The notes under the pieces: generated by a model
What the model was told of the DNA's origin: nothing
Database searches by the model: none
Seen by the model: the letters and a program-made list of their open reading frames with translations, nothing else
IMG/VR virus record: IMGVR_UViG_3300005918_000015
Length of the DNA: 64,000 bases
Direction: 5' to 3' (one strand)
Origin: an uncultured virus (IMG/VR IMGVR_UViG_3300005918_000015)
Taxonomy: Duplodnaviria > Heunggongvirae > Uroviricota > Caudoviricetes
Program-made: the position numbers and the translations under genes
Shown: positions 1,694 to 23,416 of the stretch, piece by piece
Numbering within the stretch: the first letter of the stretch is position 1
Layout: each line of letters begins with the position of its first letter

Positions 1694-1762
1694 ATACCCT
1701 ACTGGGTTTGCACCAGCATCTCCCTACTCCACGTAGGGCGGTCTTAATTAGACGAAGGGCTC
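1694..1762 (-). ncRNA. Aberrant tRNA-like RNA (5-nt anticodon loop, no CCA)
   Basis: GCCCU/AGGGU acceptor-like stem, D-like arm, CCCUAC-GUGGA-GUAGGG arm, GCUGG-UGCAAAC-CCAGU T-like arm. Confidence 0.55.
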
Positions 1763-1843
1763 TCGTAAAACAATCCAACTAATACCAAGTTCTTAAAAGG
1801 CTAAGACTGCCTCATGGTATTGTTTTCATGTCTCACTATTCAA

Positions 1844-1934
1844 ATTCTATGTTGGACAACACGACCTTTGCACCCTACGGGTCATCCTAAGATGTAACCT
1901 ACGGGTTATCTAGTCATGTCGTCTAACATAGAAT
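1844..1934 (-). ncRNA. Candidate ncRNA: 23-bp stem capped by three small hairpins
   Basis: AUUCUAUGUUAGACGACAUGACU pairs with GGUCGUGUUGUCCAACAUAGAAU (3 G-U, 1 mismatch on the minus strand). Internal hairpins are UAACC-CGUA-GGUUA, CAUC-UUAG-GAUG and ACCC-GUA-GGGU. Confidence 0.6.
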
Positions 1935-1941
1935 CGAAAAA

Positions 1942-2017
1942 TGGTGGAGCTGGCGGGAGTCGAACCCGCTACCTCTTGAATGCCATTCAAGCACTCTACC
2001 AGATGAGCTACAGCCCC
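1942..2017 (-). tRNA. tRNA-Ala(GGC)
   Basis: Cloverleaf GGGGCUG...CAGCUCC-A-CCA, anticodon arm CUUGA-AU-GGC-AU-UCAAG, G3-U70 pair. Confidence 0.95.
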
Positions 2018-2289
2018 AAAATATGTCGGTAGTAGTGACGATAAAACAGTCGTCCCATTTATAACCCCATGCGGGGTAACTACCTAAATTTTCAGACAAT
2101 AATGATAAACCTTGTTAGTTCCTAGCTCCATCTATCCAATAAGCATCCGGCTAAACGACCTATCCGGCAGGTATTTGTATTATCATTATCACCATATCAA
2201 GTTTCTTAAGATGGGCGTCGAAAGGCTTTAAGGAAACCGCGTCAACGACGAGATTCAATAAAGGTTGACCCCTTCAACTAACCCGCTTT

Positions 2290-2601
2290 CTATTTTCTTT
2301 TCAAAGGTTCAAACCAAGTGTTTTCTTCATTTTCATCAGCCCATTCGTTGGCTATGTGTTCTGCTTGGTAGGGATTAGTTCTCCCGTCTCCAAAGTAGAT
2401 AGCACCCCAATCAAGATCTCTACTACCCGCTTTACCACGGTTACGATCTTGACGATGAATGAAGTTGAAGTCCTCTTCTTCAATGTGAAGAAGTTGTCGT
2501 ATTTTACGACGAATTGCCCGACTTGTAACTTGCTTGCCTTTTTTGGAATGATTTCCACCAGTGGCAAAGCTAAATGCAGGCTTACGGTATGACCGTGACA
2601 T
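2290..2601 (-). CDS. Small basic hypothetical protein (MSRSYRKP...)
   Basis: AGGAGG RBS precedes the ATG at 2601, internal to the track ORF 2290..2691. Arg/Lys-rich. Confidence 0.75.
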   Translation of the reverse strand: MSRSYRKPAFSFATGGNHSKKGKQVTSRAIRRKIRQLLHIEEEDFNFIHRQDRNRGKAGSRDLDWGAIYFGDGRTNPYQAEHIANEWADENEENTWFEPLKRK

Positions 2602-2733
2602 TGTGACCTCCTTTTTAAAGGTTTCACAACATGACGGACCTCCTTCCTTGGTTAAAGATACTGAGCTGTAGGCCAAAAATACCCACACCATCTAATAGAT
2701 GCCTTCACTTAGGCAAAGGTACTCAGTAAGTCA

Positions 2734-2922
2734 TTCAGTATATTATGCCGAGCTATGAGTCATGAACTCATCAACCAATCTTTAAGTAAAACACACTCCC
2801 AAAGCTTAACTGAGAAGCTGATCAGCACTTGATACAGCTCGTAGGCAGCTACCTACAATGAATTACCAAACCAGATTAACCGCCCCTTACAGGAACAGGG
2901 ACTCTCGACATAATACACCGAA
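2734..2922 (-). ncRNA. Candidate ~190-nt ncRNA closed by a 19-bp terminal stem
   Basis: UUCGGUGUAUUAUGUCGAG pairs fully with CUCGGCAUAAUAUACUGAA (3 G-U pairs, consistent with minus-strand RNA). No ORF; internal hairpins present. Confidence 0.55.
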
Positions 2923-2935
2923 CAGTTTAAATTAT

Positions 2936-3006
2936 CAACCCTTAGCAGGGATTGAACCTGCATTCTCCACTATACGTGGCATCCTACCGTTAGAAGATAA
3001 GAGTTA
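2936..3006 (-). ncRNA. Aberrant tRNA-like RNA (shortened anticodon arm)
   Basis: 9-bp acceptor-like stem UAACUCUUA/UAAGGGUUG, D-loop AACGGUA, CCAC-GUAUA-GUGG arm, canonical T arm GCAGG-UUCAAUC-CCUGC. No CCA. Confidence 0.6.
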
Positions 3007-3088
3007 GATGTGCAATCCCCTAAACAATCAAAGCCTTTCCTAGGATGCTCTTCTTTAATCTAGGTTCTTACAATTATCAAAAAACCGG

Positions 3089-3230
3089 TGGGTAACAGAC
3101 AACCGTGAAAGGATTGTTACTTCCTATCTCGGCAAAGAGACAGATGAGTACCTTATGGTTGATGCCTTTAGTGAGGTTGGACTAGCTTTGCAGAGCATAC
3201 CAACTGAACTAATGCAGAGGTCTGAAACCC
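3089..3230 (-). ncRNA. Candidate structured RNA
   Basis: Ends pair (GGGU..CAGAC / GUCUG..ACCC), several internal hairpins, no ORF. Confidence 0.35.
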
Positions 3231-3240
3231 TAATTACCTT

Positions 3241-3368
3241 ATTCAATATCCTATCAGGAAATGCAGTTCCAGACAGTTAGATTTGAACCAACGTCCTCCT
3301 GCACTCTGGCAGGTGCTCTACCAGACTGAGCTACATCCAGATTTGCATGACCTGATACGATATTGAAT
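3241..3368 (-). ncRNA. tRNA-like cloverleaf mounted on a long extended stem
   Basis: AUUCAAUAUC-G-UAUCAGG..AUGCA / UGCAU..CCUGAUA-G-GAUAUUGAAU encloses a D arm (UAGCUCAGUCUGGUAGAGC), a 6-nt anticodon loop CAGAGU and a T arm GUUGG-UUCAAAU-CUAAC. Confidence 0.65.
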
Positions 3369-3398
3369 TGCTATTTAGTTTTCAATGAACGTCTTTCT

Positions 3399-3433
3399 TA
3401 CTACAACAACCCACGGGAATCCAAAACTAAGCC
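3399..3433 (-). promoter_or_regulatory. Conserved 35-bp phage promoter-like element (copy 1 of 18)
   Basis: GGCTTAGTTTT-N8-GTGGGTTGTTGTAGTA, upstream of the ncRNA block. Confidence 0.75.
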
Positions 3434-3445
3434 AAAGTTGTAAAA

Positions 3446-3520
3446 TGGAGACCCCGACGGGGATTGAACCCGCGTTACCGGATTGAGAGTCCAGCTTCCT
3501 AGCCACTAGAAGACAGGTCC
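3446..3520 (-). tRNA. tRNA-Glu(CUC)
   Basis: Anticodon arm CUGGA-CU-CUC-AA-UCCGG, T arm, CCA end; imperfect acceptor stem. Confidence 0.85.
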
Positions 3521-3772
3521 TTAATTTTTAGTTTCTTTTCTCCAAGTTACTGTTTTTAATTTGGGTTCTTGTGGTTTGTAGTTTTCCATACTATCACCAA
3601 ATACCCTTACAAGACCTACATTATTAACTGCTGCTGTTGAGTTTGTTGGTGTAGGGTTTGTTTTTATAACTTCTGGACAATGTTCACAATGAGGACATAA
3701 AGTCCAATCATTTGTGATTTCTTTTGAAGGAAACCATTCTAAACATTGCTGGCATTGTTTACGTTGTTCCAT
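3521..3772 (-). CDS. Small CxxC..CxxC zinc-finger protein
   Basis: AGGAG RBS then ATG at 3772; CQQC and CPHC motifs. The longer track ORF runs through tRNAs. Confidence 0.65.
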   Translation of the reverse strand: MEQRKQCQQCLEWFPSKEITNDWTLCPHCEHCPEVIKTNPTPTNSTAAVNNVGLVRVFGDSMENYKPQEPKLKTVTWRKETKN

Positions 3773-3798
3773 AGTAAAATAATCTCCTAAGTAAAAAA

Positions 3799-3872
3799 TG
3801 GAGCGGGTAACCGGACTCGAACCGGTATCTCCAACTTGGAAGGCTGGGGCCCAACCCTTAGACCATACCCGC
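3799..3872 (-). tRNA. tRNA-Gly(UCC)
   Basis: GCGGGUA...UACCCGC-U-CCA; anticodon arm CCAGC-CU-UCC-AA-GUUGG. Confidence 0.95.
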
Positions 3873-3909
3873 TTACATATACTGATTATCATACCCTTAA
3901 AATTAAAAA

Positions 3910-3984
3910 TGGTACGGGCGGAGGGGATCGAACCCTCGACAATTGGTTTATCAGACCAATCTTCTACCACTGAAATACACCCGT
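3910..3984 (-). tRNA. tRNA-Ile(GAU)
   Basis: Anticodon arm UUGGU-CU-GAU-AA-ACCAA; CCA end. Confidence 0.93.
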
Positions 3985-3990
3985 TTAAAA

Positions 3991-4066
3991 TGGTGGGACT
4001 GGGGCGGCTCGAACGCCCTACTTACGAATTAAAAGTTCGTTGCTCTACCTGTTGAGCTACAGTCCC
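3991..4066 (-). tRNA. tRNA-Lys(UUU)
   Basis: GGGACUG...CAGUCCC-A-CCA; anticodon arm ACGAA-CU-UUU-AA-UUCGU. Confidence 0.95.
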
Positions 4067-4749
4067 TAATGGTTTCTTAGGTGTTTCCGAATGGCATTAT
4101 CAGAAACCCCAAGTTTTTTTGCTACTTGTGTCATAGGCATACTGTTTACTAACACCATCAAGTCTTTATAGGATGGCCATTCTATTTTAGTGGGCCTTAC
4201 CCTTGACTTTTCTGCACAAATTTTACATTGTTGTGAAGTATGGAACTTTACTCTTCCACAAGAACAAATAGTTTTATCTGATTGAGGTTTTCGGTATTTA
4301 TTACGTCCTTTATAAGTAGGGAGTTGGGAATCACAATGAGGGCATATAATTCTTAAATTTTCTATCCTGTTATCAGAGCTATCCCCATTTATATGGTCTA
4401 AGTGTAAGATTAAAGGCTGACCTTTCCAGATTGGCTCCTGCCCACATAAGGAACATACATTATTTAAGAGTTTCTTTGACAACAACCGATGTTTTAAATT
4501 ATATGTTGATGTGTTTGGTGAATTAGAAACCAGTATCTCTGATAGTTTCCTTTTTTTATGATACCTACTAATATTATTTGATAAATGTGATACATCAACA
4601 CCATCATTAAGTGCTCTAGTTAATAATGTCATCCTGTTTGAACCTACAGGGCGTAACCCACATCTAGTGAGGGCTTCAGACATTGTTTTAGATACTTGGA
4701 TAATATCTCTAAATTCATCAATTGTTTTTTCATAAATAATACTAGGCAT
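4066..4749 (-). CDS. Free-standing HNH endonuclease with C-terminal HTH (probable homing endonuclease)
   Basis: CSLC...LHLDHINGDSSDNRIENLRIICPHCDS motif, C-terminal QVAKKLGVSDNAIRKH, GGAGG RBS before ATG 4749. Confidence 0.9.
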   Translation of the reverse strand: MPSIIYEKTIDEFRDIIQVSKTMSEALTRCGLRPVGSNRMTLLTRALNDGVDVSHLSNNISRYHKKRKLSEILVSNSPNTSTYNLKHRLLSKKLLNNVCSLCGQEPIWKGQPLILHLDHINGDSSDNRIENLRIICPHCDSQLPTYKGRNKYRKPQSDKTICSCGRVKFHTSQQCKICAEKSRVRPTKIEWPSYKDLMVLVNSMPMTQVAKKLGVSDNAIRKHLRNH

Positions 4750-4867
4750 TTGAACCTCCATTCTTAGTGCTTTACACACTTAGAGGGTTCAATAATACAA
4801 AAATTGAAAAAACACCCAAGAGGGTGCTCGGTGTCCTGTGTTAGACGAGAAGGTAATAATTATACGA

Positions 4868-4976
4868 TGGAGGGGAGGTTGGTAGATTCGAACTACCTCG
4901 ACCCCGTAAGACATGCAAAACAAAGAGGTCTTTCCCTATAGAGTTATTGCTGGCCATACAATAACCCCTTCTCCCC
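4868..4976 (-). ncRNA. Enlarged tRNA-like RNA with CCA end
   Basis: GGGGAG/CUCCCC-U-CCA acceptor and T arm GGUAG-UUCGAAU-CUACC, but the D and anticodon arms are replaced by a 10-bp hairpin and a hairpin with a 19-nt loop. Confidence 0.6.
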
Positions 4977-4981
4977 ATAAA

Positions 4982-5058
4982 TGGTCCGATACCCCAGATT
5001 TGAACTGGGAACCTCTTGATCCCGAACCAAGCACCCTACCAGATTGGGCCAGTATCGG
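4982..5058 (-). tRNA. tRNA-Pro(CGG)
   Basis: Anticodon arm CUUGG-UU-CGG-GA-UCAAG; C1-G72, A73, CCA. Confidence 0.93.
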
Positions 5059-5181
5059 TTAATTTGCCATGTACTAAAAAGTGTGGCCACACCTTCCAGT
5101 ATTTGGGTTTAGTTACCTTCTCAGAGGATCACCCTGATATACGTCTAAAACCCGTTGCCCATGGCCCAGCAGTATTCAAAA

Positions 5182-5258
5182 TGGTCGGAGTAGACAGATT
5201 TGAACTGTCGGCTTCTTGACCCCCAGTCAAGCGGTCTACCAGACTGACCTATACCCCG
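5182..5258 (-). tRNA. tRNA-Pro(GGG)
   Basis: Anticodon arm CUUGA-CU-GGG-GG-UCAAG; CCA. Confidence 0.93.
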
Positions 5259-5309
5259 GAAAATGTTAATACAATATTGTGTTACACACAGATTTGTGTA
5301 GTAAAACAT

Positions 5310-5410
5310 ACTCGGGCAGGAGTCGAACCTGCATTACCAAGTTAATCCCTGGCGTGTTTCCTAAACCAACACTCATGAGGTATTGGTGTTTTTTTTATCA
5401 CTACCGAGTA
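5310..5410 (-). ncRNA. Aberrant tRNA-like RNA (expanded D region, 6-nt anticodon loop)
   Basis: UACUCGG/CCGAGUA stem, CCAGG-GAUUAA-CUUGG arm, T arm GCAGG-UUCGACU-CCUGC. No CCA. Confidence 0.55.
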
Positions 5411-5415
5411 AAAAA

Positions 5416-5492
5416 TGGTCGAGGTACTCAGATTCGAACTGAGGACTTCCTGCTCCCAAAGCAGGCGGACTACCAGACTGTCCTATACCTCG
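5416..5492 (-). tRNA. tRNA-Pro(UGG)
   Basis: Anticodon arm CCUGC-UU-UGG-GA-GCAGG; CCA. Confidence 0.95.
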
Positions 5493-5726
5493 TTATTTGT
5501 GTTTTCGTTTCTTTAATCTTGGAACAGACCCCATCGGAGTCCATTCATATTCCCCATCAATAGGGAATTTTTGTATTTGTTTAGGATAATCTCCTACACC
5601 TTTGATGAGTATTCGTTTCTGTTCACCTGTCAGGTTTAAACATTCCTCAGAATCCAAGATCCATCGGATACGTTCCCAAACTTGGTACTTGTTCTCACGT
5701 TCGACCTGAATGGAGAACTGTCCCAT
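5493..5726 (-). CDS. Hypothetical protein, possibly a 5'-truncated remnant
   Basis: The frame stays open upstream toward tRNA-Asp (GGSYAPPGSYEVEV...) without a start codon. Confidence 0.5.
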   Translation of the reverse strand: MGQFSIQVERENKYQVWERIRWILDSEECLNLTGEQKRILIKGVGDYPKQIQKFPIDGEYEWTPMGSVPRLKKRKHK

Positions 5727-5801
5727 ATTAGGGTCGTACTGAGAAACTTCTACTTCATAGCTTCCTGGCGGTGCATAGCTTCCTCCTGATGTAAAAATAA
5801 A

Positions 5802-5879
5802 TGGCGGAACATATGGGATTTGAACCCATGATCTCTGCCTTGACAGGGCAGCGTCTTAAGCCAACTAGACTAATGCTCC
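5802..5879 (-). tRNA. tRNA-Asp(GUC)
   Basis: GGAGCAU...AUGUUCC-G-CCA; anticodon arm CUGCC-CU-GUC-AA-GGCAG. Confidence 0.95.
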
Positions 5880-5887
5880 ATATATAA

Positions 5888-6433
5888 TTAAGTTCCTTGT
5901 AGAGCTGGAACTTGTTCACATTCTTCTCTTAATAGGGAGTACATTTTGTAATCCCTATGCTCACCTCTATTGAAAGCACATTTCCTCATCGTTCCTTCGT
6001 GCCGATAGTGACATTTCTCAGCTACTTTCTGGCAACCGATGTTATCAACATCCATCATAACTTGTAAACGAGGAGTTTCAAAGTTCTGGAAAAGATAATT
6101 AGACATGATCTTTAGTGCCTCAGTCATGTATCCTTTACTTCTGTGTTCGGCCTTAAAGATATGGAATCCGATCTCATACCCATTTACATAAGCACCATTT
6201 GAGAAGTACCCAATACTTCCGATAATGTTCTCTTGGGTGTTGCAGATAAGTAACCAACCCTCATCATTGTCCCACAAGCCTGTGTCCTTGAACTCTTTTT
6301 CGAGCTGAGACAGACTTCGAAGATATGAAGGCCAGAACTTACCTCTTTCAGTGAGATCGTTATCTAACTGAAGGTATTCTTCAAGGCCTTCTTTTCTGAA
6401 AGTTCTTAAAATAACTTTTTCACCTGTAATCAT
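5888..6433 (-). CDS. GNAT N-acetyltransferase, RimJ/RimL family
   Basis: EIGFHIFKAEHRSKGYMTEA (acetyl-CoA loop), NIGCQKVAEKCHYRHEGTMR. Confidence 0.9.
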   Translation of the reverse strand: MITGEKVILRTFRKEGLEEYLQLDNDLTERGKFWPSYLRSLSQLEKEFKDTGLWDNDEGWLLICNTQENIIGSIGYFSNGAYVNGYEIGFHIFKAEHRSKGYMTEALKIMSNYLFQNFETPRLQVMMDVDNIGCQKVAEKCHYRHEGTMRKCAFNRGEHRDYKMYSLLREECEQVPALQGT

Positions 6434-6474
6434 TTTCTCACCTCTATATAATGAACTTATTATATGATACCCAA

Positions 6475-6580
6475 AATGACGGGTTTCTCGGGAAGGGATT
6501 TGAACCCTCTTTACACTGACCTTTGGCCAGCATCTTTACCAGTATGTTGCATCTCCGATAATTCCCTAACAGACTGTCAT
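6475..6580 (-). ncRNA. Aberrant tRNA-like RNA
   Basis: T arm GAGGG-UUCAAAU-CCCUU, GCUGGCC-AAA-GGUCAGU arm, CUGGUA D-like loop, irregular extended closing stem. Confidence 0.5.
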
Positions 6581-6596
6581 GACAGTCCATTAACAA

Positions 6597-6672
6597 TGGC
6601 GACCGTATAGGGGTTTGAACCCTAGTTGCCGAATTGAAAGTCCGGTGTCCTGACCAATTGGACGATACGGTC
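6597..6672 (-). tRNA. tRNA-Glu(UUC)
   Basis: GACCGUA...UACGGUC-G-CCA; anticodon arm CCGGA-CU-UUC-AA-UUCGG. Confidence 0.95.
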
Positions 6673-6720
6673 ATTAAATGTTTTTGTCAGAAAAACTATA
6701 CTTTTTTCTGACAAAATAAA

Positions 6721-6795
6721 TGGCTCCTGGAACAGGATTCGAACCTGTATTGAGACGGTTAACAGCCGTCGGCCTTACCAATCGGCCATCCAGGA
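6721..6795 (-). tRNA. tRNA-Asn(GUU)
   Basis: UCCUGGA...UCCAGGA-G-CCA; anticodon arm GACGG-CU-GUU-AA-CCGUC. Confidence 0.95.
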
Positions 6796-6843
6796 ATAAA
6801 ATTTCAATTTGTCAACATCCAATAAACTTGGACATTCAAAAAT

Positions 6844-6919
6844 TGGGGTGGATGACGAGAATTGAACTCGCCTAAACTTGGGCCACAACCAAGCGGTCAA
6901 CCACTGACCCACATCCACC
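6844..6919 (-). tRNA. tRNA-His(GUG)
   Basis: G-1:C73 pair; anticodon arm CUUGG-UU-GUG-GC-CCAAG; CCA. Confidence 0.95.
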
Positions 6920-6929
6920 ATAATAAGAA

Positions 6930-7024
6930 GGACCATGTAAGGAATCGAACCTTACACCAATTAACCGGCCTAGAGGGCCTATTTCTACGAGTACCAGTTA
7001 AACAGACTCACCACAGAGGGGTCC
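6930..7024 (-). ncRNA. Aberrant tRNA-like RNA
   Basis: GGACC/GGUCC closing stem, T arm GUAAGG-UUCGAUU-CCUUAC, long UUAACUGG/CCGGUUAA arm in place of the anticodon arm. Confidence 0.5.
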
Positions 7025-7138
7025 ATAATTTAACAAAAACAGTGGGGGGAATTTAACCACCCCCACTGGAAGTGTTATGCCATTTTCTCTATTATTTAAT
7101 TGTCAATGAACATGGGCAACGATTACCCATTAAAACAT

Positions 7139-7174
7139 AAAAAAAGCCGGACACCCTTTTGAGGTGTCCGGCTT
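7139..7174 (-). terminator. Intrinsic terminator (attenuator) upstream of the tRNA array
   Basis: AAGCCGGACACCU-CAAAA-GGGUGUCCGGCUU, ending in a run of 7 U. Confidence 0.9.
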
Positions 7175-7198
7175 GTAGCTTAAATTGCTGTTAGGCTG

Positions 7199-7354
7199 CT
7201 ACGTCACACCGGACACCTCAATATCATTATGACCATTTTCTTCTGGACGATTTGATGGTGCTGGGGCTGATCCCACGACTACACAAATCTGTCCAACGGC
7301 CATAATCTTGGCTGCTTGTTTGACTGATTGTTTGTTGTCGTGTCTGCGTATCAT
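7199..7354 (-). CDS. Putative attenuator leader peptide (51 aa)
   Basis: GGAG RBS 6 nt before ATG 7354. Sequence MIRRHDNKQSVKQAAKIMAVGQICVVVGSAPAPSNRPEENGHNDIEVSGVT. Its last codons contain the antiterminator. Confidence 0.7.
   Translation of the reverse strand: MIRRHDNKQSVKQAAKIMAVGQICVVVGSAPAPSNRPEENGHNDIEVSGVT
7209..7221 (-). promoter_or_regulatory. Antiterminator strand
   Basis: UUGAGGUGUCCGG is perfectly complementary (13/13) to the terminator 5' arm and loop CCGGACACCUCAA (7159-7171). Confidence 0.8.
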
Positions 7355-7411
7355 CTTCTTCTCCATAGTTGCTCTAATAGGAAATTTGATTTTCCTGAGC
7401 ATTAAGTATCC

Positions 7412-7440
7412 AAAATACAAGCTCTTTAAAAGAATGTCAA
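7412..7440 (-). promoter_or_regulatory. sigma70-type promoter for the leader/tRNA array
   Basis: TTGACA-17 nt-TATTTT. Confidence 0.65.
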
Positions 7441-7494
7441 GAACTTTTTTAAGTTATTTTCAATTTAATTACCAAGACTTTTTTTATCGTCTTG

Positions 7495-7529
7495 TAGTAC
7501 AACAACCCACAAGAAATCAAAACTAAGCC
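7495..7529 (-). promoter_or_regulatory. 35-bp phage promoter-like element
   Basis: GGCTTAGTTTT-N8-GTGGGTTGTTGTACTA. Confidence 0.75.
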
Positions 7530-7549
7530 AAAAAAGTTTTATTGCCTGT

Positions 7550-8509
7550 TTACTGGCCTCCTGCCAAGTCTTGTAGGTTTTTGAAACGGCTGATGTATTC
7601 TTCTATAGGGACGATTGCTGTTTCAGCTACGTCCAAGGTCTTGGCATAATCCACAGCTTTCTGAAGTTTCTCAAGACACTCTTGGATTTGGTCGATATCG
7701 AAACGGACATCGGAAATATCCTTGGGGATACTTGTTATTGGGTTATCTGTTTCATCCAAGTCAATCAGGATATTCATTAACCAAGGCATCTCTGTAGCTA
7801 AAGCCCCTACACATTTATTTCCAGCAGCCTTGAACATCCCCATATCCACCAACCCTTTCAAGAGTTTTGGAGTGTTGAATGTGTCTCGGGCAGCCCTGAT
7901 TGTCATCACATTATATCCATCACGCCCATAAGGGATTGCATAACCACTCAAGAAATCTTTTGGACTCATTGGCAATTGGTAGAAAACACTCGTGGCTTTG
8001 GGAGTTTTTAAACTTTCTTTACCGTTTAATGCTTTCTCTTTATCCCCAACTGCCTTATTAAGGTCGTATGGAGCCTTCGTTGCCATCATATCCAATAGGA
8101 TTAGGGAACGGATCGGATAATTGTGATTGGTCATATAGTCCTTAGCCAATTCCCAATCTTTCTCAGTTGTTGGGTGATTCCCTGAAAACTGTTTATAAGC
8201 TTCAACATTACTTTGCCATCCAAGGAATGGGACAAAGGGAGAATCTACAACGTAATCTCCAGGAACTTTATTACCATCATTCAGGGAAGATTCAGAATCA
8301 TTTTTTCCAGAGGGCAAAGTCATAAAACCTGAAGGCTTATTACCTTTGAAATCTACGTACAGGAAATAATCCAAACCGTCCACATTCCCTATCATGAGAG
8401 ACATGCCAGTGGCATCTCTTAATTCAGGGTTGGAGGTATCGGATGTGAACAGGCATGTGCCTCTTACGAAATAATTTCGTTTTTGTCCTTCAATCTTAAT
8501 AAGTCTCAT
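7550..8509 (-). CDS. Hypothetical protein, translationally coupled to nadD
   Basis: 319-aa ORF with an ATGA overlap with the nadD stop. Confidence 0.8.
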   Translation of the reverse strand: MRLIKIEGQKRNYFVRGTCLFTSDTSNPELRDATGMSLMIGNVDGLDYFLYVDFKGNKPSGFMTLPSGKNDSESSLNDGNKVPGDYVVDSPFVPFLGWQSNVEAYKQFSGNHPTTEKDWELAKDYMTNHNYPIRSLILLDMMATKAPYDLNKAVGDKEKALNGKESLKTPKATSVFYQLPMSPKDFLSGYAIPYGRDGYNVMTIRAARDTFNTPKLLKGLVDMGMFKAAGNKCVGALATEMPWLMNILIDLDETDNPITSIPKDISDVRFDIDQIQECLEKLQKAVDYAKTLDVAETAIVPIEEYISRFKNLQDLAGGQ

Positions 8510-9060
8510 AAGTATAGTCCTTTCTCGACTATGTAATCAAACACATTTTTTGGAATCATCTTCTCTACATAAGGCATATTAGTTTCGTGAGCTGCAATCA
8601 GCTCACGAATCCTGGTGGAACTGATATTAGGCATCTCCCATACCCAAATTGAATCAGAAGACCTTTCTCGTGGAACGACATGTAATCCTATCAGGTTCTC
8701 AAGGATGTTCCAATCTTTCCATCGGTGTTGCTCTAACACATTATCTGAACCTATAATGAAAGTGAAATCATTATCAGGATAGTCCCGTTGCAGGTTCGTT
8801 ACTAAGTGAATGGAGTATTTGGTCTGGTACATCTTCTCATAATGACGAACAATCACATTTGGCCATTGAGAGAAAGCTAACCGGCACATTTCCATCCGAG
8901 TCTCGAAAGGCAACAAGCTGTCATTCTTATCAAAAGCATGTTCCCAACATGGGAGCACCCAAACTTCATCAAATTTCCCAGAAGCTAATGCATCCGTAAC
9001 CATGAAAAGATGGGCTTTGTGTGGTGGGTTAAAACCACCACCGAGAATAGCAACTCTCAT
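8506..9060 (-). CDS. nadD: Nicotinate-mononucleotide adenylyltransferase
   Basis: GGGFNPPHKAH (HxGH-like), FIIGSDN, ISSTRIRE motifs. Confidence 0.92.
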   Translation of the reverse strand: MRVAILGGGFNPPHKAHLFMVTDALASGKFDEVWVLPCWEHAFDKNDSLLPFETRMEMCRLAFSQWPNVIVRHYEKMYQTKYSIHLVTNLQRDYPDNDFTFIIGSDNVLEQHRWKDWNILENLIGLHVVPRERSSDSIWVWEMPNISSTRIRELIAAHETNMPYVEKMIPKNVFDYIVEKGLYL

Positions 9061-9788
9061 TACTTCACCTCAAAATCAATCCCCTGCTCAAGCAGGGCTT
9101 CGTAGTTGGTTTTATCAAAACGATACTTGAGGGCTGGTCTGCCCCCACTCCGCTTCTGTCCGTCAGGAGTTAACACACCCAACTTCATTACTTTAGCTCG
9201 GAAATTCCGTTTATCAAGTTTCTGGCCGAGAATGGCCTCATAGACCTCCTGAAGCTCTGTAAGAGTAAAAGCCTCTGGTAGGACGTTAATACCTATCGGT
9301 TGCCACCTGACCTTAGATCTGAGCCTCTGAAGGCCCCTCTTAATGATCTTATTGTGGTCGAAAGCCAAGCTGGGTAATCCTGAGATAGGAAACCACTTAG
9401 CTTTGGCTGCATCGTCTCCAGCTTCGACGGTTACGTCAGCAGCACGGACGAGTGCCAGATAAGATGTGGAGATTACTCTGCCACGAGGATCTCGTCCAGG
9501 GTCTCCAAAGGTATAGAGCTGTTCCATCCAAGCCAGCTTCACGCTGGTTTCTTCTTCCAGTTCCCGAAGGACAGCTTGATCGATGGTTTCGTCTTCTTCA
9601 AGATAACCCCCGGGCAATGCCCACTGGCCTTTGAAAGGGTCGTCTTTTCGTTCAATCAGGAGAACATGGAGTTCATTCCTGTCTATGAACATCTTATCAG
9701 GCCCAATGCCGAACACCACTGCATCTACAGTATTGTCGGCCATTGGGTAATCGTATGTATATGATTGTTTTTTATTTCTCGACTTCAA
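9060..9788 (-). CDS. nrtR: NrtR-family Nudix + winged-HTH transcriptional regulator
   Basis: WALPGG..E..RELEEET Nudix box, QLYTFGDPGRDPRGR, LAFDH, C-terminal FTLTELQEVYEAIL..DKRNFR..GRPA. Confidence 0.92.
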   Translation of the reverse strand: MKSRNKKQSYTYDYPMADNTVDAVVFGIGPDKMFIDRNELHVLLIERKDDPFKGQWALPGGYLEEDETIDQAVLRELEEETSVKLAWMEQLYTFGDPGRDPRGRVISTSYLALVRAADVTVEAGDDAAKAKWFPISGLPSLAFDHNKIIKRGLQRLRSKVRWQPIGINVLPEAFTLTELQEVYEAILGQKLDKRNFRAKVMKLGVLTPDGQKRSGGRPALKYRFDKTNYEALLEQGIDFEVK

Positions 9789-9966
9789 CGGTTGGCCATC
9801 CTTTCAGAATTTTTCTAATCCCTAAAAAAGCCACTTTGTAAGCAGCATAATGTCCTTCAAGGTATTTTAAGCTATGATCGGAATCAATACATGCTTCGTT
9901 TTTTTCTTCAAGGAGCTTGGCCAAGGCCTGTAACTCCGTATGTGCCGTTTCTATTTTTGTTGACAT
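9772..9966 (-). CDS. Hypothetical protein
   Basis: GGAGG RBS before ATG 9966; fills the gap in the operon. Confidence 0.6.
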   Translation of the reverse strand: MSTKIETAHTELQALAKLLEEKNEACIDSDHSLKYLEGHYAAYKVAFLGIRKILKGWPTVEVEK

Positions 9967-9979
9967 CCCTACAACCCTC

Positions 9980-10906
9980 CTATTTAACAGGTACTTTAAT
10001 GATGTTTCCGTCAGCGTCACGTTTGATAGCAACGTACACCAAATTAGCAGCCGTCACATATTTCTCATCGTCTTCACGTCCTGGTCGTGAAGCTGTAACT
10101 TCTACCCGAACAGTGATGGAGGTTTTACCAATTTTGACCAGTGATGTCCAAAAACTGATTGCATCACCGATCTTCAAAGGCTTCTTAAACTCAATACCGT
10201 CCATTGCAATGGTAGCCACATCGTGGTTTGTGTGACGTTGAGCTTCCATAGCTCCTGCCAGATCAATCTCAGCCAGAACAGCCCCGCCAAAGACTTCTCC
10301 ACGGTGGTTAGTATCTCTTGGGAGCAGCATTCTACGAACTGCTAAATAACGGTCGATCTTGGAGTTAATGACAATTTTAGCAGTCTCCAATTCTTCATCG
10401 GTAAACATCACCAATGAAATTTCTTCAATGTGGTCCCATTTCCGGGAAGTGGCTGCTTTGTAAGCTATGTTGACACCCAGTTCCAGAGGACAACCATACA
10501 CACCACAAGAGATGGCAGGGAAAGCAATCGTTTTGCATTGGGTTGCATCGGCCAATTTAAGACTATTCAAGTAGGCTTCATACAAAAGTTTTTCTTTATC
10601 GGTACCATCCGGCAGAGTGATAGCATTATCAATTTCGATGTCTGCAAACAAAGGACCCACGGTATGAATGACGTAACGTGCAGGAAGATTGTACCCTGCT
10701 GTCAGAAAAGCCTCACCTGTATAACAACGGACACCAGGTTCTTTTTCAGGAAGTTGCTCACAAGCAAACTTGAGAGCCGAGCCAGCACCACGATGGATTG
10801 CACCATCTACACCACCACCCCCTAATAGGGAAGGACGGCCAGCATTAACGATGGCATCAACGATCATTTTGGTAATATCATCTTGAATAACAAGTATTTT
10901 GGTCAT
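9980..10906 (-). CDS. Macrodomain (YmdB/MacroD-type) fused to HotDog acyl-CoA thioesterase
   Basis: N-terminal DAIVNA..LLGGGGVDGAIH, HTVGP, AFPAISCGVYG; C-terminal LPRDTNHRGEVFGG..EIDLAG, GKTSITVRVEV. Confidence 0.88.
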   Translation of the reverse strand: MTKILVIQDDITKMIVDAIVNAGRPSLLGGGGVDGAIHRGAGSALKFACEQLPEKEPGVRCYTGEAFLTAGYNLPARYVIHTVGPLFADIEIDNAITLPDGTDKEKLLYEAYLNSLKLADATQCKTIAFPAISCGVYGCPLELGVNIAYKAATSRKWDHIEEISLVMFTDEELETAKIVINSKIDRYLAVRRMLLPRDTNHRGEVFGGAVLAEIDLAGAMEAQRHTNHDVATIAMDGIEFKKPLKIGDAISFWTSLVKIGKTSITVRVEVTASRPGREDDEKYVTAANLVYVAIKRDADGNIIKVPVK

Positions 10907-11125
10907 GATTTTTTTCCTTCAGTTTTTAGTGTATACGTTTGCAATGATGAGGCCATACTTCTCTGCCATGATGAGGCCATACTTCATCCGTTTTCAATTC
11001 ATGATCTGTAACCTCTAGTTTAGGGGCTAAGAGGACACGCCCCCAGAACTCCTTTACATTAATAGGTTCAGGAGGGTCTACGTGCGTGAAAGGATGAATT
11101 ACATCAATGATAATCAAATCTTTTT

Positions 11126-11449
11126 TCATGATTTTTCCTTTTTTCCTATGTGTTCGTGAAGGCCTCCGGCAATATCACCTTTGACATCACAGTCTGTGTT
11201 GGCAGGATACCAGTTTTCCCCTCTTTCCTCATGGAATTCCTTGTCGGATTCATGAGGGTTAGGAGCTACAATAAATCCAGGCAGTGAAGTCCCACCATCA
11301 AGACAGGTAAGAATACTGAAGGCCAGACCTTCCATCCGTTCTCGAGTGGTTTTGTCAGGAAGATCATGCCAGTATTCGGTCATCATACGAACGTGGTCAA
11401 GGAACATTTCCCTGACCTCGTCCGTGGTGTATTCTCGTGAATCAGACAT
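11126..11449 (-). CDS. Hypothetical protein
   Basis: AAGGA RBS; co-oriented, operon-like packing. Confidence 0.7.
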   Translation of the reverse strand: MSDSREYTTDEVREMFLDHVRMMTEYWHDLPDKTTRERMEGLAFSILTCLDGGTSLPGFIVAPNPHESDKEFHEERGENWYPANTDCDVKGDIAGGLHEHIGKKEKS

Positions 11450-11650
11450 GTTAATTTCCTTGGTAAAATTGTATAAGGCTGATATAATGTGTAATGGTAA
11501 CGGCAAGTGCTAAAACCATAGTAATAACAACATTGAATTTTTCTATAGATTTCTTTTTGGATAATTCAAATGTCCCAGAAAAAACAAAAACCAGAACCCC
11601 AAAAAACATCATAAACCAGTGGAAATACTCATGATTTATATAATCCGGCA

Positions 11651-12055
11651 TTAGTTAGCTCCTTTCTGACCAAGCTGCATCAGAACCATGCTGTTAGGGA
11701 TTTTGTAGCTTTTACCGGTTACACAATCCACAACTGAGATTGGGTACTTAGGACGACGAGTGTTGATTCCAGTGATTTTAGCCATGTTGCCGTTGTTGAG
11801 GCGGATTTCTTTGTTGTAGTCATCTTCGGTCATGTTATACAAAGGAGCAAGACGTTTGAAATCAGCAGGGATACCATCTTCGGTAACAATACAGAATTTC
11901 AGTTTAGGGCTGTAACTGGCAGCGGGGTCATACTTGCCACCGTTGATGCTCATAGTCAAGCCGTGTTTCTCTACAACCTCAGCTAAAGCAGCTTTGATCT
12001 CAGAGTCCAGTGTTGTCATAAATGCTTTTGTTACCTTGGTAATTTTCTGTGCCAT
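11651..12055 (-). CDS. Hypothetical phage protein
   Basis: AGGAG RBS; first gene after the promoter-like element at 12101-12135. Confidence 0.8.
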   Translation of the reverse strand: MAQKITKVTKAFMTTLDSEIKAALAEVVEKHGLTMSINGGKYDPAASYSPKLKFCIVTEDGIPADFKRLAPLYNMTEDDYNKEIRLNNGNMAKITGINTRRPKYPISVVDCVTGKSYKIPNSMVLMQLGQKGAN

Positions 12056-12100
12056 TGTTCATCTCCTTGGGTTAAGTTTTCAGTGTCGTTTTATCTTCTA

Positions 12101-12135
12101 CACTTCAACAACCCACGAGAATCCAAAACTAAGCC
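12101..12135 (-). promoter_or_regulatory. 35-bp phage promoter-like element
   Basis: GGCTTAGTTTT-N8-GTGGGTTGTTGAAGTG. Confidence 0.75.
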
Positions 12136-12136
12136 A

Positions 12137-12430
12137 TTATTTTTTCTTTTTAGCAGATTGTGCTGCTTCGATGAATCGGCCAAGGAATTTACTGTAGTAT
12201 GTTTCAGCAGTTTCAACGGCAGCTTTCTGTGTTTTAGCTGTGAAATCCTCAGCCCAAACAGCATCCTCTGGGTCAATGATATCATTTTCATCTTTAATCA
12301 TGAAGAACACTTGATATTTTTTCTTGTCGTAGTCAACAGTAAGTTCATCTCCTGGAGCATGAACTAATGCAGCTCCAAAAAAACCATCATCCGAGTACCA
12401 CAAGCCTTTTGATTTCTTCTTAAATTTCAT
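12137..12430 (-). CDS. Hypothetical protein
   Basis: ATGA overlap with the upstream gene; AGGAG RBS. Confidence 0.7.
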   Translation of the reverse strand: MKFKKKSKGLWYSDDGFFGAALVHAPGDELTVDYDKKKYQVFFMIKDENDIIDPEDAVWAEDFTAKTQKAAVETAETYYSKFLGRFIEAAQSAKKKK

Positions 12431-13380
12431 TCATCTTCTCCTAACTTCAAAAGTTTTCGAACCAACTCTTTCATATCCGTTGGCCATAACCATTCTGGTC
12501 GAGGGTACTGAGTATCTGGTGAACCGTACTGAGGTTCACAGTTCAATACGGTATCCTGCCATTTCTTAGGGATTGCTTCGATTCCATAGTAAGCTCCAAG
12601 GAGAGCCCCGACAATAGCACCGTTTGTATCGGTATCCCCACCACGTTGAATAGTGTCTACCAGACCTTCCTCAAAATTCTCAGCATGAAGCAACTGCCAG
12701 AAAGCATTCTGGAGAGCAATCAAGACCCAGCCCATCTGGTGAAAATACTCATCAGGAGGATTCTGTTTAGCATTTGTAAGAGCTTCAATAACAGAAGGAG
12801 AAATTCCCCGTTTCTTGGCCAGTCGTAGAATAAACTCATATATTTCCAAGGGGCTTTCGTCCCTTACCAAGCAGGTATAAAGTGCAAACACGAAAACACT
12901 GTTTGCATCGACACACACCTGATTGACATGAGTGATTCTACAATCGTGTGCAGCCCAACCCATAAATTTATTAGGGAAAGCCAGACCCAGAATGCCTAAC
13001 GGGGCAGCCCGCATCATGGCTCCATTAGCTTGGCTGCCTTTGTCAAATCTGTTGGACAGAGATTTGTTGATGGTCCCACCAATACCGAAAGGCATCGTGT
13101 TTCTCCACTCTATGTAAGCCCTCTTAACTTCGTTCGTTTTATACCTGCCGTTTTTCAGGACCGATCGAATCATAGCCAGAGCCATCTCAGAATCATCCGT
13201 AATCTGTCCAGGAGCTAATTTCCATACTCCAGGGTCACCAAACTCACGAACACCTTTAGGATACCTCCATTGGATGTCAGCAGGGTTCTCAAATTCCACG
13301 ATAGCTCCGAGAGCGTCTCCAACACACATTCCAATGAGACAGCCATCAGTTTTGTTAAGTTGTTTTTTTGTCGGTTTCAT
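12427..13380 (-). CDS. ADP-ribosylglycohydrolase (DraG/ARH family)
   Basis: GDALG..EF, TDDSE, ANGAMMR, ITH, GGDTDTNGAIVGALLGA motifs. Confidence 0.93.
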   Translation of the reverse strand: MKPTKKQLNKTDGCLIGMCVGDALGAIVEFENPADIQWRYPKGVREFGDPGVWKLAPGQITDDSEMALAMIRSVLKNGRYKTNEVKRAYIEWRNTMPFGIGGTINKSLSNRFDKGSQANGAMMRAAPLGILGLAFPNKFMGWAAHDCRITHVNQVCVDANSVFVFALYTCLVRDESPLEIYEFILRLAKKRGISPSVIEALTNAKQNPPDEYFHQMGWVLIALQNAFWQLLHAENFEEGLVDTIQRGGDTDTNGAIVGALLGAYYGIEAIPKKWQDTVLNCEPQYGSPDTQYPRPEWLWPTDMKELVRKLLKLGEDE

Positions 13381-23402: not shown

Positions 23403-23416
23403 TTTGGTTCTCCTTC

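What the first reader, a model, noticed from the sequence alone, without database searches (positions are those of the whole stretch)
7139..7440. Ribosome-coupled attenuator (codon-sampling leader peptide) gating a phage tRNA/ncRNA array
Seen, on the minus strand in order: a sigma70-type promoter (TTGACA-17-TATTTT, 7412-7440), a GGAG RBS, a 51-codon ORF (7354-7199), a 13-bp terminator hairpin with a U run (7174-7139), then the tRNA array. Codons I-E-V-S-G just before the stop contain UUGAGGUGUCCGG (7221-7209), a perfect 13-nt complement of the terminator 5' arm and loop. Established: this is the logic of trp/his-type attenuators. A ribosome reaching the stop masks the antiterminator and transcription stops; a ribosome stalled upstream frees it and transcription reads through. 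Unlike those leaders there is no run of one amino acid. The leader samples many codons, including all four Val codons. All 9 amino acids served by the array tRNAs occur in it, 10 of the 12 tRNAs have a cognate codon in it, and 15 of the 17 residues in APAPSNRPEENGHNDIE belong to that set. Inference: the phage senses tRNA depletion or translation arrest, for example from host anticodon nucleases, and only then deploys replacement tRNAs and tRNA mimics. I know of no description of such a system.
Basis: partly seen in the sequence, partly recalled or inferred. Interest (0 to 1): 0.92.

Follow-up and report, generated by a model that had tools for sequence, protein, structure and literature searches.

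The report
Leader-ORF terminator switch before phage tRNAs
A giant salt-lake phage keeps a tiny translated gene whose last codons can pair with, and so disable, the transcription stop signal right behind it, which probably lets the state of translation decide whether RNA polymerase runs on toward the phage's tRNA genes.

Summary
The 13-nt complement between the ORF end (7221-7209) and the terminator 5' arm plus loop is beyond chance: 0 of 5000 shuffles reached 12 nt. The terminator and antiterminator folds are near-isoenergetic, -37.4 vs -36.0 kcal/mol, and the antiterminator forms first during transcription.

A natural variant about 10% divergent keeps the terminator through two double compensatory changes. 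It also keeps the reading frame, the stop codon and both alternative folds. The ORF belongs to an 11-member small-protein family known only from metagenomes. A Ser48-to-Phe variant sits exactly at the antiterminator partner of a changed terminator base, but that three-way covariation is inferred, not seen.

The "codon-sampling" statistics are at chance level. Only a local Pro/Glu/Asn/His/Asp block, matching the first five downstream tRNA genes, is suggestive, and that test was post hoc.

A second strong terminator-like hairpin (7069-7033) lies between the switch and the tRNAs. The variant diverges there, so "gating the array" is unproven.

The scan has noted similar leader-ORF switches before phage tRNA arrays on other DNA.

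Verdict: a real attenuator-like switch, a new variant of a known kind. Its role as a tRNA-depletion sensor remains speculative.

The parts
7490..7546 (-). Copy of a phage-specific promoter-like motif (GGCTTAGTTTy-N8-yGTGGGTTGTTG...), just after the stop of the 319-aa gene
   Evidence: 19 copies in the window, all oriented with the genes. Many unrelated contigs pile up here. This stretch is skipped in the variant haplotype (joint 7460>8528).
7412..7440 (-). Sigma70-like promoter TTGACA-17-TATTTT
   Evidence: 10 of 12 consensus positions. In the variant, 0 of 12 hexamer positions change, against 3 of 17 spacer positions and 10 substitutions in the 57 nt downstream.
7361..7364 (-). GGAG Shine-Dalgarno, 6 nt before ATG 7354
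   Evidence: Sequence. Unchanged in the variant, although 7358 and 7356 change.
7199..7354 (-). 51-codon ORF (P0001), a member of an 11-sequence small-protein family of 48-53-aa cores
   Evidence: Both indels inside the ORF in the variant are 3 nt; those outside are 1, 1, 2, 2 and 9 nt. The translation rebuilt equals database protein P0005 at 50 of 51 residues.
7223..7249 (-). Codons 36-44 (R-P-E-E-N-G-H-N-D), a conserved block placed where a stalled ribosome would leave the antiterminator strand free
   Evidence: No nucleotide change is listed in 7208-7250 between the haplotypes. R36, P37, N40, H42 and D44 are invariant in 11 of 11 sequences. 7 of 9 residues are in the set served by the first five downstream tRNA genes: P=0.003 at this fixed position, P=0.043 for the best window anywhere, post hoc.
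7208..7221 (-). Antiterminator 5' strand (codons 45-49, I-E-V-S-G)
   Evidence: 13 Watson-Crick pairs plus 1 G.U with 7159-7172. 0 of 5000 shuffles gave 12 nt or more.
7175..7202 (-). 5-bp hairpin (7202-7198 with 7179-7175) that closes the antiterminator loop and contains the UAG stop
   Evidence: Predicted in every fold. In the variant, 7198 C>U keeps the pair as U.G, and the indels fall in its loop.
7139..7174 (-). Intrinsic terminator T1: 13-bp stem, 5-nt loop, U7
   Evidence: -24.3 kcal/mol. In the variant, pairs 7172/7146 and 7168/7150 both go from G-C to A-U, and 7162/7156 goes from U.G to U-A.
7069..7130 (-). Spacer between T1 and T2, unusually conserved; holds a weak sigma70-like site TTGCCC-17-AATAAT (7119-7091)
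   Evidence: 1 substitution in 62 nt, against 5 in the 31-nt T1 stem-loop. The promoter-like site matches 9 of 12 consensus positions.
7033..7069 (-). Second terminator-like hairpin T2, followed by U5GUU
   Evidence: -19.3 kcal/mol. Variant contigs become unalignable exactly at 7069 (loose ends).
6930..7030 (-). Degenerate tRNA-like element with a canonical T-arm
   Evidence: Fold. Not found by ARAGORN at default settings or by Rfam. Called a weak tRNA-Arg(tct) only at the relaxed ARAGORN threshold ps80.
5416..6918 (-). The first five tRNA genes downstream: His(gtg), Asn(gtt), Glu(ttc), Asp(gtc), Pro(tgg), with a GNAT acetyltransferase gene (5888-6433) between Glu and Asp

Best explanation
The region is a conserved module of about 390 nt (7460-7069). 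It holds a host-type promoter, a translated 51-codon ORF, and an intrinsic terminator (T1) whose 5' arm can pair instead with the last codons of the ORF.

Proposed mechanism (inferred from the anatomy, not measured):
- As RNA polymerase transcribes 7171-7159, this stretch pairs with 7221-7208. That antiterminator helix forms before the terminator 3' arm exists.
- A ribosome that translates through codons 45-51 and sits on UAG (7201-7199) unwinds or masks this strand. T1 then folds and transcription stops at the U tract.
- If no ribosome arrives, or one is held up at or before about codon 41, the antiterminator persists. Polymerase then reads on into the conserved spacer, T2, a tRNA-like element and the tRNA genes (His, Asn, Glu, Asp, Pro and onward).

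On this reading the element is a leader-peptide-type, translation-sensing attenuator. Whether it specifically reports shortage of particular tRNAs, and how much read-through survives T2, remains open.
For: - Anatomy. The stop codon lies 8 nt after the antiterminator strand and 24 nt before the T1 stem. By recalled ribosome footprint sizes, a terminating ribosome would cover the antiterminator but not the terminator.
- Significance. A 13-nt perfect complement is observed; 0 of 5000 shuffles reached 12 nt. The 4 nt that pair with the terminator loop cannot be explained by a copy of the 3' arm.
- Energetics. The terminator state is -37.4 and the antiterminator state -36.0 kcal/mol. Every transcript prefix ending at 7159-7150 folds the antiterminator. 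For transcripts starting at 7420, 7354 or 7300, the minimum-energy fold of the full leader keeps the antiterminator.
- Natural variation (contigs of runs X8, X9 and X10).
  - T1 has two double compensatory changes and one U.G to U-A change. All 5 substitutions in the stem-loop preserve pairing.
  - The loop-closing hairpin keeps its pair as U.G.
  - The variant still has both folds, at -29.2 vs -30.3 kcal/mol.
- ORF reality.
  - In-frame 3-nt indels fall inside the ORF, and out-of-frame ones outside it.
  - GGAG, ATG and the stop codon are kept.
  - There are 11 family members, and all end 3-4 residues after the invariant Val47.
- Third strand.
  - Database proteins P0005 and P0002 carry Ser48Phe. 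A single change gives this only as UCC to UUC, at 7212, which is the antiterminator partner of the changed terminator base 7168.
  - P0005 otherwise equals the haplotype that carries 7168A and 7150U.
  - With that change, the antiterminator is 16 uninterrupted pairs at -23.3 kcal/mol.
- Position of the conserved codon block.
Against: - A second strong terminator-like hairpin (T2, -19.3 kcal/mol, U5GUU) lies between T1 and the tRNAs, with no room for a promoter after it. Read-through at T1 alone may therefore not deliver tRNAs.
- The variant haplotype keeps the module but diverges at 7069. Linkage of the switch to this tRNA array is not shown to be conserved.
- The peptide is conserved at the amino-acid level along its whole length: 16 invariant and 11 nearly invariant columns in 11 sequences. 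That fits a functional small protein as well as, or better than, a mere leader.
- Between the reference and the variant, 7 substitutions change the amino acid and 2 do not. This is too few to decide on selection.
- The three-way covariation rests on counting unlisted differences and on a protein match. No DNA of a Phe48 haplotype was seen. In X8, a contig covering 7174-7238 shows no change at 7212.
- The candidate 1:2 hairpin (7233-7203) loses 2 of its 6 outer pairs in the variant. The trp-type four-segment scheme is therefore not fully met.
- The codon-sampling statistics are at chance level.
- No expression or termination data of any kind were available.
Confidence: 0.5

Rival explanations
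1. It is an ordinary early phage gene. A host-type promoter, a small functional protein and a strong terminator form a self-contained unit. The upstream complement has no regulatory role for the tRNAs, which are transcribed from another promoter, such as the weak site at 7119-7091 or one not recognised here.
For: - The peptide family is conserved over its whole length.
- Five of the seven amino-acid changes between the haplotypes look chemically conservative by my own judgement: I>M, V>I, V>L, T>S, S>A.
- Two terminators in tandem (T1, T2) look like insulation.
- The spacer 7069-7130 is the best-conserved stretch and contains a promoter-like site matching 9 of 12 consensus positions.
- The variant has different DNA after 7069.
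Against: - A 13-14-nt complement that competes with the terminator is far beyond chance, and it is kept in balance with the terminator in the variant.
- T2 lies downstream of the candidate second promoter, so that promoter would face a terminator too.
- The peptide has no family match.
- The peptide has no confident fold: pLDDT 59.8 and no secondary structure.
Confidence: 0.27
2. The switch is real, but what it controls is not the tRNA array. It might set the 3' end or stability of the small gene's own mRNA, or expression of whatever lies in the conserved spacer (7130-7069). T2 then stops all read-through.
For: - The conserved module ends at 7069, not at the tRNAs.
- T2 is a canonical hairpin with a U tract.
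- The spacer has 1 substitution in 62 nt.
Against: - The spacer holds no ORF with a ribosome-binding site and no Rfam match.
- A switch whose only output is about 100 nt of extra RNA has no evident use.
- Tandem terminators are rarely 100% efficient (recalled knowledge, not tested here).
Confidence: 0.18
3. The terminator/antiterminator choice is made by a trans-acting factor, such as uncharged tRNA in a T-box or an RNA-binding protein, and not by the ribosome on the ORF.
For: Terminator/antiterminator pairs are also the expression platform of T-box and protein-dependent attenuators (recalled knowledge).
Against: - Neither T-box nor any other cis-regulatory family reached even E=1 in 1-9000 or E=10 in 6880-7560.
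- The antiterminator strand lies inside a conserved, framed ORF that ends 8 nt later.
Confidence: 0.04

Closest known systems
Leader-peptide transcription attenuators of enterobacterial amino-acid operons (trpL, hisL, the multivalent ilv and thr leaders) and the pheM leader of pheST (recalled knowledge, no paper read here)
   Same: Short translated leader ORF, an intrinsic terminator, a mutually exclusive antiterminator whose 5' strand is masked by a ribosome at the leader stop codon, and regulatory codons placed upstream of that strand. pheM shows that such leaders can control genes of the translation apparatus.
   Different: - There is no run of a single regulatory codon.
- The candidate 1:2 anti-antiterminator is weak and not conserved, so absence of translation should give read-through rather than super-attenuation.
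- The downstream genes are tRNA genes of a phage, not a biosynthetic operon.
- The leader is long (51 codons) and its peptide sequence is conserved.
- A second terminator follows.
bmrB-bmrCD ribosome-mediated attenuator of Bacillus subtilis (PMC4191407; abstract and section 15 read)
   Same: A leader ORF of about 50 codons (bmrB has 53) with alternative stem-loops and an intrinsic terminator. Slowed translation is proposed to favour the antitermination structure, so the ribosome acts as a general sensor of translation trouble rather than of one amino acid.
   Different: - In bmrB the terminator lies inside the coding region, and blocking translation lowered read-through. Here the terminator lies 24 nt after the stop codon, and folding predicts read-through without translation.
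- The bmrB target is a drug transporter, not tRNAs.
- The bmrB system belongs to a host, not a phage.
Phage tRNAs as counter-defence against tRNA-depleting host nucleases (PMC10264068, abstract read; PMC11464382 and PMC11555353, search listing only)
   Same: Gives a rationale for a phage to supply tRNAs when host tRNAs are being destroyed.
   Different: What I read (one abstract and two search-listing entries) mentions no regulatory leader or attenuator in front of phage tRNA genes. Four full-text searches for one found none.
T-box riboswitch
   Same: A terminator/antiterminator decision coupled to tRNA status.
   Different: No T-box match. The antiterminator strand here is coding sequence.

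Membership tests
Leader-peptide (ribosome-mediated) transcription attenuator | Short ORF with a ribosome-binding site upstream of the controlled genes, on the same strand | tested here: met
   GGAG, 6 nt, ATG 7354, 51 codons. Frame, start and stop are kept in the variant and in the family.
Leader-peptide (ribosome-mediated) transcription attenuator | Intrinsic terminator between the leader and the downstream genes | tested here: met
   T1 has 13 bp plus U7 at -24.3 kcal/mol. Two double compensatory changes in the variant.
Leader-peptide (ribosome-mediated) transcription attenuator | Antiterminator pairing that excludes the terminator and is comparably stable | tested here: met
   14 pairs; -36.0 vs -37.4 kcal/mol. 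0 of 5000 shuffles reached 12 nt. Retained in the variant. Covariation on the third strand is inferred only.
Leader-peptide (ribosome-mediated) transcription attenuator | Leader stop codon placed so that a terminating ribosome masks the antiterminator strand but not the terminator | tested here: met
   The stop is 8 nt after 7208 and 24 nt before 7174. 11 of 11 family members end 3-4 residues after Val47. Footprint size is recalled, not measured.
Leader-peptide (ribosome-mediated) transcription attenuator | Regulatory codons matched to the function of the controlled genes, upstream of the antiterminator strand | tested here: inconclusive
   There is no run of one codon, and the whole-leader statistics are at chance. 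In the block R-P-E-E-N-G-H-N-D, 7 of 9 residues are served by the first five downstream tRNA genes: P=0.003 at the fixed position, P=0.043 for the best window, post hoc.
Leader-peptide (ribosome-mediated) transcription attenuator | Anti-antiterminator (1:2) hairpin giving termination when the leader is not translated | tested here: not met
   Only a weak hairpin at 7233-7203. It is displaced by the antiterminator in all prefix folds, and 2 of its 6 outer pairs are broken in the variant.
Leader-peptide (ribosome-mediated) transcription attenuator | Read-through shown to respond to translation of the leader | not testable with these tools
   Needs reporters, Term-seq or Ribo-seq.
Leader-peptide (ribosome-mediated) transcription attenuator | Read-through reaches the controlled genes | tested here: inconclusive
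   T2 lies between T1 and the tRNAs. No recognised promoter lies between T2 and the tRNA-like element.
T-box riboswitch | Match to the T-box covariance model (Stem I, specifier, T-box sequence) | tested here: not met
   No match at E<=1 in 1-9000 or at E<=10 in 6880-7560.
Known protein family for the ORF product | Match to Pfam or PHROGs, or a confident fold | tested here: not met
   0 families in Pfam and PHROGs. AlphaFold2 gave pLDDT 59.8 with no secondary structure. All homologues are unnamed metagenome proteins.

The most novel reading that the evidence does not exclude
The switch is a multi-tRNA sensor. The invariant codon block Pro-Glu-(Glu)-Asn-Gly-His-(Asn)-Asp sits exactly where a stalled ribosome would leave the antiterminator free. 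Its codons are read by the same five tRNA species as the first five genes of the array downstream (His, Asn, Glu, Asp, Pro). His, Asn and Asp are three of the four tRNAs that colicin-E5-type anticodon nucleases cut (recalled knowledge). On this reading, the phage switches on replacement tRNAs only when those host tRNAs run short, for example after attack by a host tRNA nuclease. It would be one instance of a recurrent, unpublished class of leader-ORF valves in front of phage tRNA arrays.
Probability: 0.2. Interest if true: 0.9.

Novelty: new variant of a known kind. Interest (0 to 1): 0.68.

Why it matters
Why phages carry tRNA genes, and when they use them, is an open and active question; counter-defence against tRNA-cleaving immune nucleases is the current leading idea. 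A translation-sensing attenuator in front of a phage tRNA array would be the first regulatory link between the state of the host's translation and phage tRNA supply. It would extend leader-peptide attenuation from biosynthetic and resistance operons to viral tRNA genes. The element is small (about 300 nt) and its predictions are sharp: start-codon, stop-position and three-strand compensatory mutants. It can therefore be tested directly in reporter constructs. Four full-text searches found no description of such a control.

Tried and rejected
Searches for related DNA:
- INPHARED phages: blastn of 6900-7600 gave no match. tblastn of the 319-aa neighbour and of the leader peptide gave none.
- IMG/VR: no relative by the 319-aa protein, the leader peptide, alignment A1, or exact patterns from T1, the conserved codon block and the tRNA-like T-arm.
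- IMG/VR, promoter motif: the pattern found one 74.7-kb contig (L002). That contig holds no leader ORF.
- Species-representative genomes: the pattern and alignment A2 gave none.
No DNA of any variant or homologue could therefore be read. The tool that would fetch their contigs is closed.
- No whole genome is held for the window.

Other dead ends:
- The 319-aa neighbour has no homologue.
- No RNA holder was listed among the sequencing runs, so nothing can be said about expression.
- Rfam gave nothing above chance in the region, so the T-box reading is rejected.
- Pfam and PHROGs gave nothing for the ORF.
- The AlphaFold2 model has low confidence, so no fold search was run.
- The trp-type 1:2 hairpin was considered and rejected as not conserved.

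Rejected or set aside:
- 'Codon sampling' of all tRNAs, including the four Val codons, is rejected as chance.
- A joint in X8 that skips 7130-7313 (depth 2.6, one contig) might be a natural deletion of the switch. It is too weakly supported to use.
- Linkage of terminator type to residue 48 in X8 could not be resolved from the contig pieces.
Full report
**What the window is.** The window comes from an uncultured large phage.
- The DNA is held by 16 salt-lake or marine metagenome runs. The leader protein occurs on contigs up to 402 kb.
- Nothing close exists among GenBank phages or in IMG/VR.
- Nearly all genes lie on the minus strand.
- Upstream of the finding lie NAD/ADP-ribose genes: an NMN-adenylyltransferase-like gene at 8506-9060, a Nudix/NrtR gene at 9060-9788, a macro-domain/thioesterase gene at 9980-10906 and an ADP-ribosylglycohydrolase gene at 12427-13380.
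- Downstream lies an array of 13 ARAGORN tRNA calls, interrupted by a GNAT gene and an HNH endonuclease gene.

- TTGACA-17-TATTTT lies at 7440-7412. GGAG lies 6 nt before ATG 7354. The ORF has 51 codons and ends in UAG at 7201-7199.
- The terminator T1 has a 13-bp stem, a 5-nt loop and U7, at 7174-7139.
- UUGAGGUGUCCGG (7221-7209) is the perfect complement of 7171-7159.
- The complement is not chance. The 9-mer core occurs three times in 64 kb, all three here.
- 5000 dinucleotide-preserving shuffles of the upstream 246 nt never gave more than 11 nt. Three other strict terminators in the window have only 6-9 nt.
- Four of the 13 nt pair with the terminator loop, so a simple copy of the 3' arm does not explain the match.

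**Two states.**
- Over 7240-7136 the terminator fold is -37.4 kcal/mol and the best fold with the antiterminator is -36.0.
- The antiterminator has 14 pairs and is closed by a 5-bp hairpin that contains the stop codon.
- Transcript prefixes ending between 7159 and 7150 all fold the antiterminator (-31.4 to -31.9). With longer 5' context (from 7420, 7354 or 7300), the minimum-energy fold of the complete leader keeps the antiterminator.
- Naked RNA should therefore read through.
- The stop codon is 8 nt beyond the antiterminator strand and 24 nt before the T1 stem. By recalled footprint sizes, a ribosome that finishes the ORF covers the first and not the second.
- The weak local hairpin 7233-7203 could play the role of trp segment 1:2. 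However, it is displaced in all prefix folds, and 2 of its 6 outer pairs are broken in the variant.

**Natural variation.** I laid contigs of four runs on 6400-8600. A haplotype about 10% divergent is present in X8, X9 and X10.
- *Terminator:* pair 7172/7146 and pair 7168/7150 both change from G-C to A-U, and 7162/7156 goes from U.G to U-A. All five substitutions in the stem-loop keep or improve pairing.
- *Loop-closing hairpin:* 7198 C>U keeps a U.G pair, and the 1- and 2-nt deletions fall in its loop.
- *ORF:* the two indels are 3 nt each, while those outside the ORF are 1, 1, 2, 2 and 9 nt. GGAG, ATG and UAG are kept.
- *Promoter:* 0 of 12 hexamer positions change, against 3 of 17 in the spacer and 10 substitutions in the 57-nt 5' UTR.
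- *Conserved stretch:* no change is listed in 7208-7250.
- *Rebuilt variant:* rebuilding it by coordinates gives an intact ORF. The terminator has 13 Watson-Crick pairs. The antiterminator has 9 pairs, a C.A mismatch, then 6 pairs. The two states score -29.2 vs -30.3 kcal/mol.

**A third covarying strand (inferred).**
- The protein database holds the reference ORF (P0001) and relatives.
- P0005 is identical to my rebuilt variant at 50 of 51 residues. The one difference is Ser48Phe.
- From UCC, a single change gives Phe only as UUC. That is 7212 C>U, exactly the antiterminator partner of 7168, whose G>A change is compensated at 7150 in the terminator.
- Counting supports this. X9 record 27 (7208-7460) has 24 differences, of which 21 are listed. 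Two of the unlisted ones are matched by X8 record 21 beyond 7427, and X8 record 19 shows none unlisted in 7221-7343. One unlisted difference therefore falls in 7208-7220.
- Records 26 and 27 overlap by 30 nt, and record 26 carries 7168A and 7150U.
- With 7212U the antiterminator becomes 16 uninterrupted pairs at -23.3 kcal/mol.
- Caveat: this is an inference, and I saw no DNA of a Phe48 haplotype. An X8 contig over 7174-7238 shows no 7212 change, and its linkage to a terminator type is unresolved.

**The ORF is a conserved family.**
- HMMER against 1.84 billion representatives found 4 proteins at E<=0.001. A profile search found 10 at E<=0.01.
- Together with P0005, this gives 11 aligned sequences, with 16 invariant and 11 nearly invariant columns.
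- All 11 end 3-4 residues after the invariant Val47.
- Residue 48, in the middle of the antiterminator strand, is the most variable position of the C-terminal block: Ser in 5, Phe in 2, Pro in 4.
- The family has no Pfam or PHROG match and no confident fold.
- Conservation along the whole peptide argues that the peptide itself matters, either as a protein or as a nascent chain. Between the reference and the variant there are 7 replacement and 2 silent substitutions, too few to decide.

**Codon claims.** I compared the leader with 2156 windows of 51 codons drawn from 62 long ORFs of the window.

| Claim | P against random windows |
|---|---|
| All 9 amino acids present | 0.44 |
| 10 of 12 tRNAs served | 0.46 |
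| 30 of 51 residues in the set | 0.20 |
| 25 of 51 codons read by phage tRNAs | 0.30 |
| Four Val codons | 0.08 |
| 15-of-17 stretch | 0.014 |

- 'Codon sampling' is therefore not supported.
- A narrower, post-hoc observation is more interesting. Codons 36-44 (R-P-E-E-N-G-H-N-D) lie where a stalled ribosome would leave the antiterminator free.
- Seven of these 9 residues belong to the amino acids of the first five tRNA genes downstream (His, Asn, Glu, Asp, Pro). This gives P=0.003 at that fixed position and P=0.043 for the best 9-residue window anywhere.
- R36, P37, N40, H42 and D44 are invariant in the family.

**Does it gate the array?** This is not shown.
- After T1 comes a 62-nt spacer (7130-7069) with a single substitution in the variant, which makes it the best-conserved part. 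It holds a weak sigma70-like site.
- Next comes T2, a hairpin of -19.3 kcal/mol followed by U5GUU.
- T2 is followed within about 10 nt by a degenerate tRNA-like element and then by tRNA-His.
- No promoter fits between T2 and the tRNAs, so transcripts for them must cross T2 whatever their origin.
- Variant contigs become unalignable exactly at 7069. The conserved unit is 7460-7069, and its downstream partner differs between strains.
- The variant also lacks the 319-aa gene and the phage promoter-like motif at 7546-7490 (joint 7460>8528).
- Another copy of that motif lies inside the array at 3450-3394.

**Comparison with what is known.**
- The anatomy meets four defining features of leader-peptide attenuators: the leader ORF, the terminator, an exclusive antiterminator and the stop-codon placement.
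- It is inconclusive for matched regulatory codons and for reaching the target genes.
- It fails the anti-antiterminator feature.
- In working principle it is closest to general translation-sensing leaders such as bmrB (53 codons; abstract and section 15 read). In bmrB, though, loss of translation lowered read-through, whereas folding here predicts the opposite.
- No T-box or other Rfam family matches.
- Phage tRNAs as a counter to tRNA-depleting defences is a published hypothesis (abstract).
- Four full-text searches found no attenuator described for phage tRNA genes.
- The scan's own earlier notes list 17 findings, in at least 17 other genomes, of leader-ORF switches before phage tRNA arrays. 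These are unchecked AI notes on other DNA and are not independent evidence. They do suggest a recurrent architecture worth a joint test.

**Verdict.** I put 0.5 on it working as a ribosome-dependent attenuator. I put about 0.2 on the specific reading that it senses shortage of particular tRNAs and deploys replacements. The 'codon-sampling' argument should be dropped. T2 and the missing DNA of the family members are the main open points.

Noticed in passing
19 sites, e.g. 62997, 58899, 53459, 47709, 45197, 41827, 23432, 12116, 7510, 3414 (minus strand); 25098, 29476 (plus strand): A phage-specific promoter-like motif, GGCTTAGTTTy-N8-yGTGGGTTGTTG-tAGTAAGAA, always oriented with the gene that follows. 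It usually lies 4-55 nt before the start codon. It probably marks a phage-directed (middle or late) promoter class. One exact copy was found in a 74.7-kb IMG/VR contig (L002).
   Followed up: partly
window 7550-8509: A 319-aa ORF with no homologue in 5.8 billion proteins. It is absent from the variant haplotype, where a joint links 7460 to 8528. This is a strain-specific insertion or deletion next to the leader module.
   Followed up: partly
window 8506-13380 and 22302-24947: Cluster of NAD/ADP-ribose genes: an NMN-adenylyltransferase-like gene, Nudix/NrtR, macro domain fused to a thioesterase, ADP-ribosylglycohydrolase, NAD synthetase-like and nicotinamide phosphoribosyltransferase-like genes. 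This looks like phage NAD+ reconstitution against NAD-depleting defence (a recalled concept). It lies next to the tRNA array.
   Followed up: no
window 14017-15741: 574-aa protein with a weak eukaryotic-type protein kinase domain (Pkinase, E=2.6e-9).
   Followed up: no
window 1942-2017: ARAGORN calls tRNA-Ala(ggc). Rfam scores the same 76 nt as tmRNA at 42.1 bits, below the gathering score of 47. It may be a tRNA-like domain of a tmRNA-type molecule.
   Followed up: no
window 3266-3341 and 2937-3004: A tRNA with an odd anticodon loop (ARAGORN 'tRNA-???', anticodon 'ga'), placed directly after a phage promoter-like motif. Separately, a tRNA seen only by Rfam at 37 bits.
   Followed up: no
window 6930-7030: A tRNA-like element with a perfect T-arm but poor acceptor and D arms. 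ARAGORN calls it tRNA-Arg(tct) only at the relaxed threshold. A 151-nt contig of a marine run matches 6886-7036 with one difference.
   Followed up: partly
window 7039-7082 (variant haplotype): Where the reference has T2, the loose ends of the variant contigs (two contigs, agreement 0.72) carry the core TGGGTTGTT of the phage promoter-like motif. The spacing from TGGC at 7082-7079 is the usual one. T2 in the reference may occupy the place of a phage-type promoter in other strains.
   Followed up: no
window 30942-32814 and 44169-45532: Diverged tandem duplications of coding sequence, at 70-83% identity (repeat families D4, D7, D9, D10, D20).
   Followed up: no
window 4066-4779: An HNH homing-endonuclease gene (phrog_10822, E=2.7e-40) inserted within the tRNA array, between tRNA-Pro(cgg) and tRNA-Lys.
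   Followed up: no
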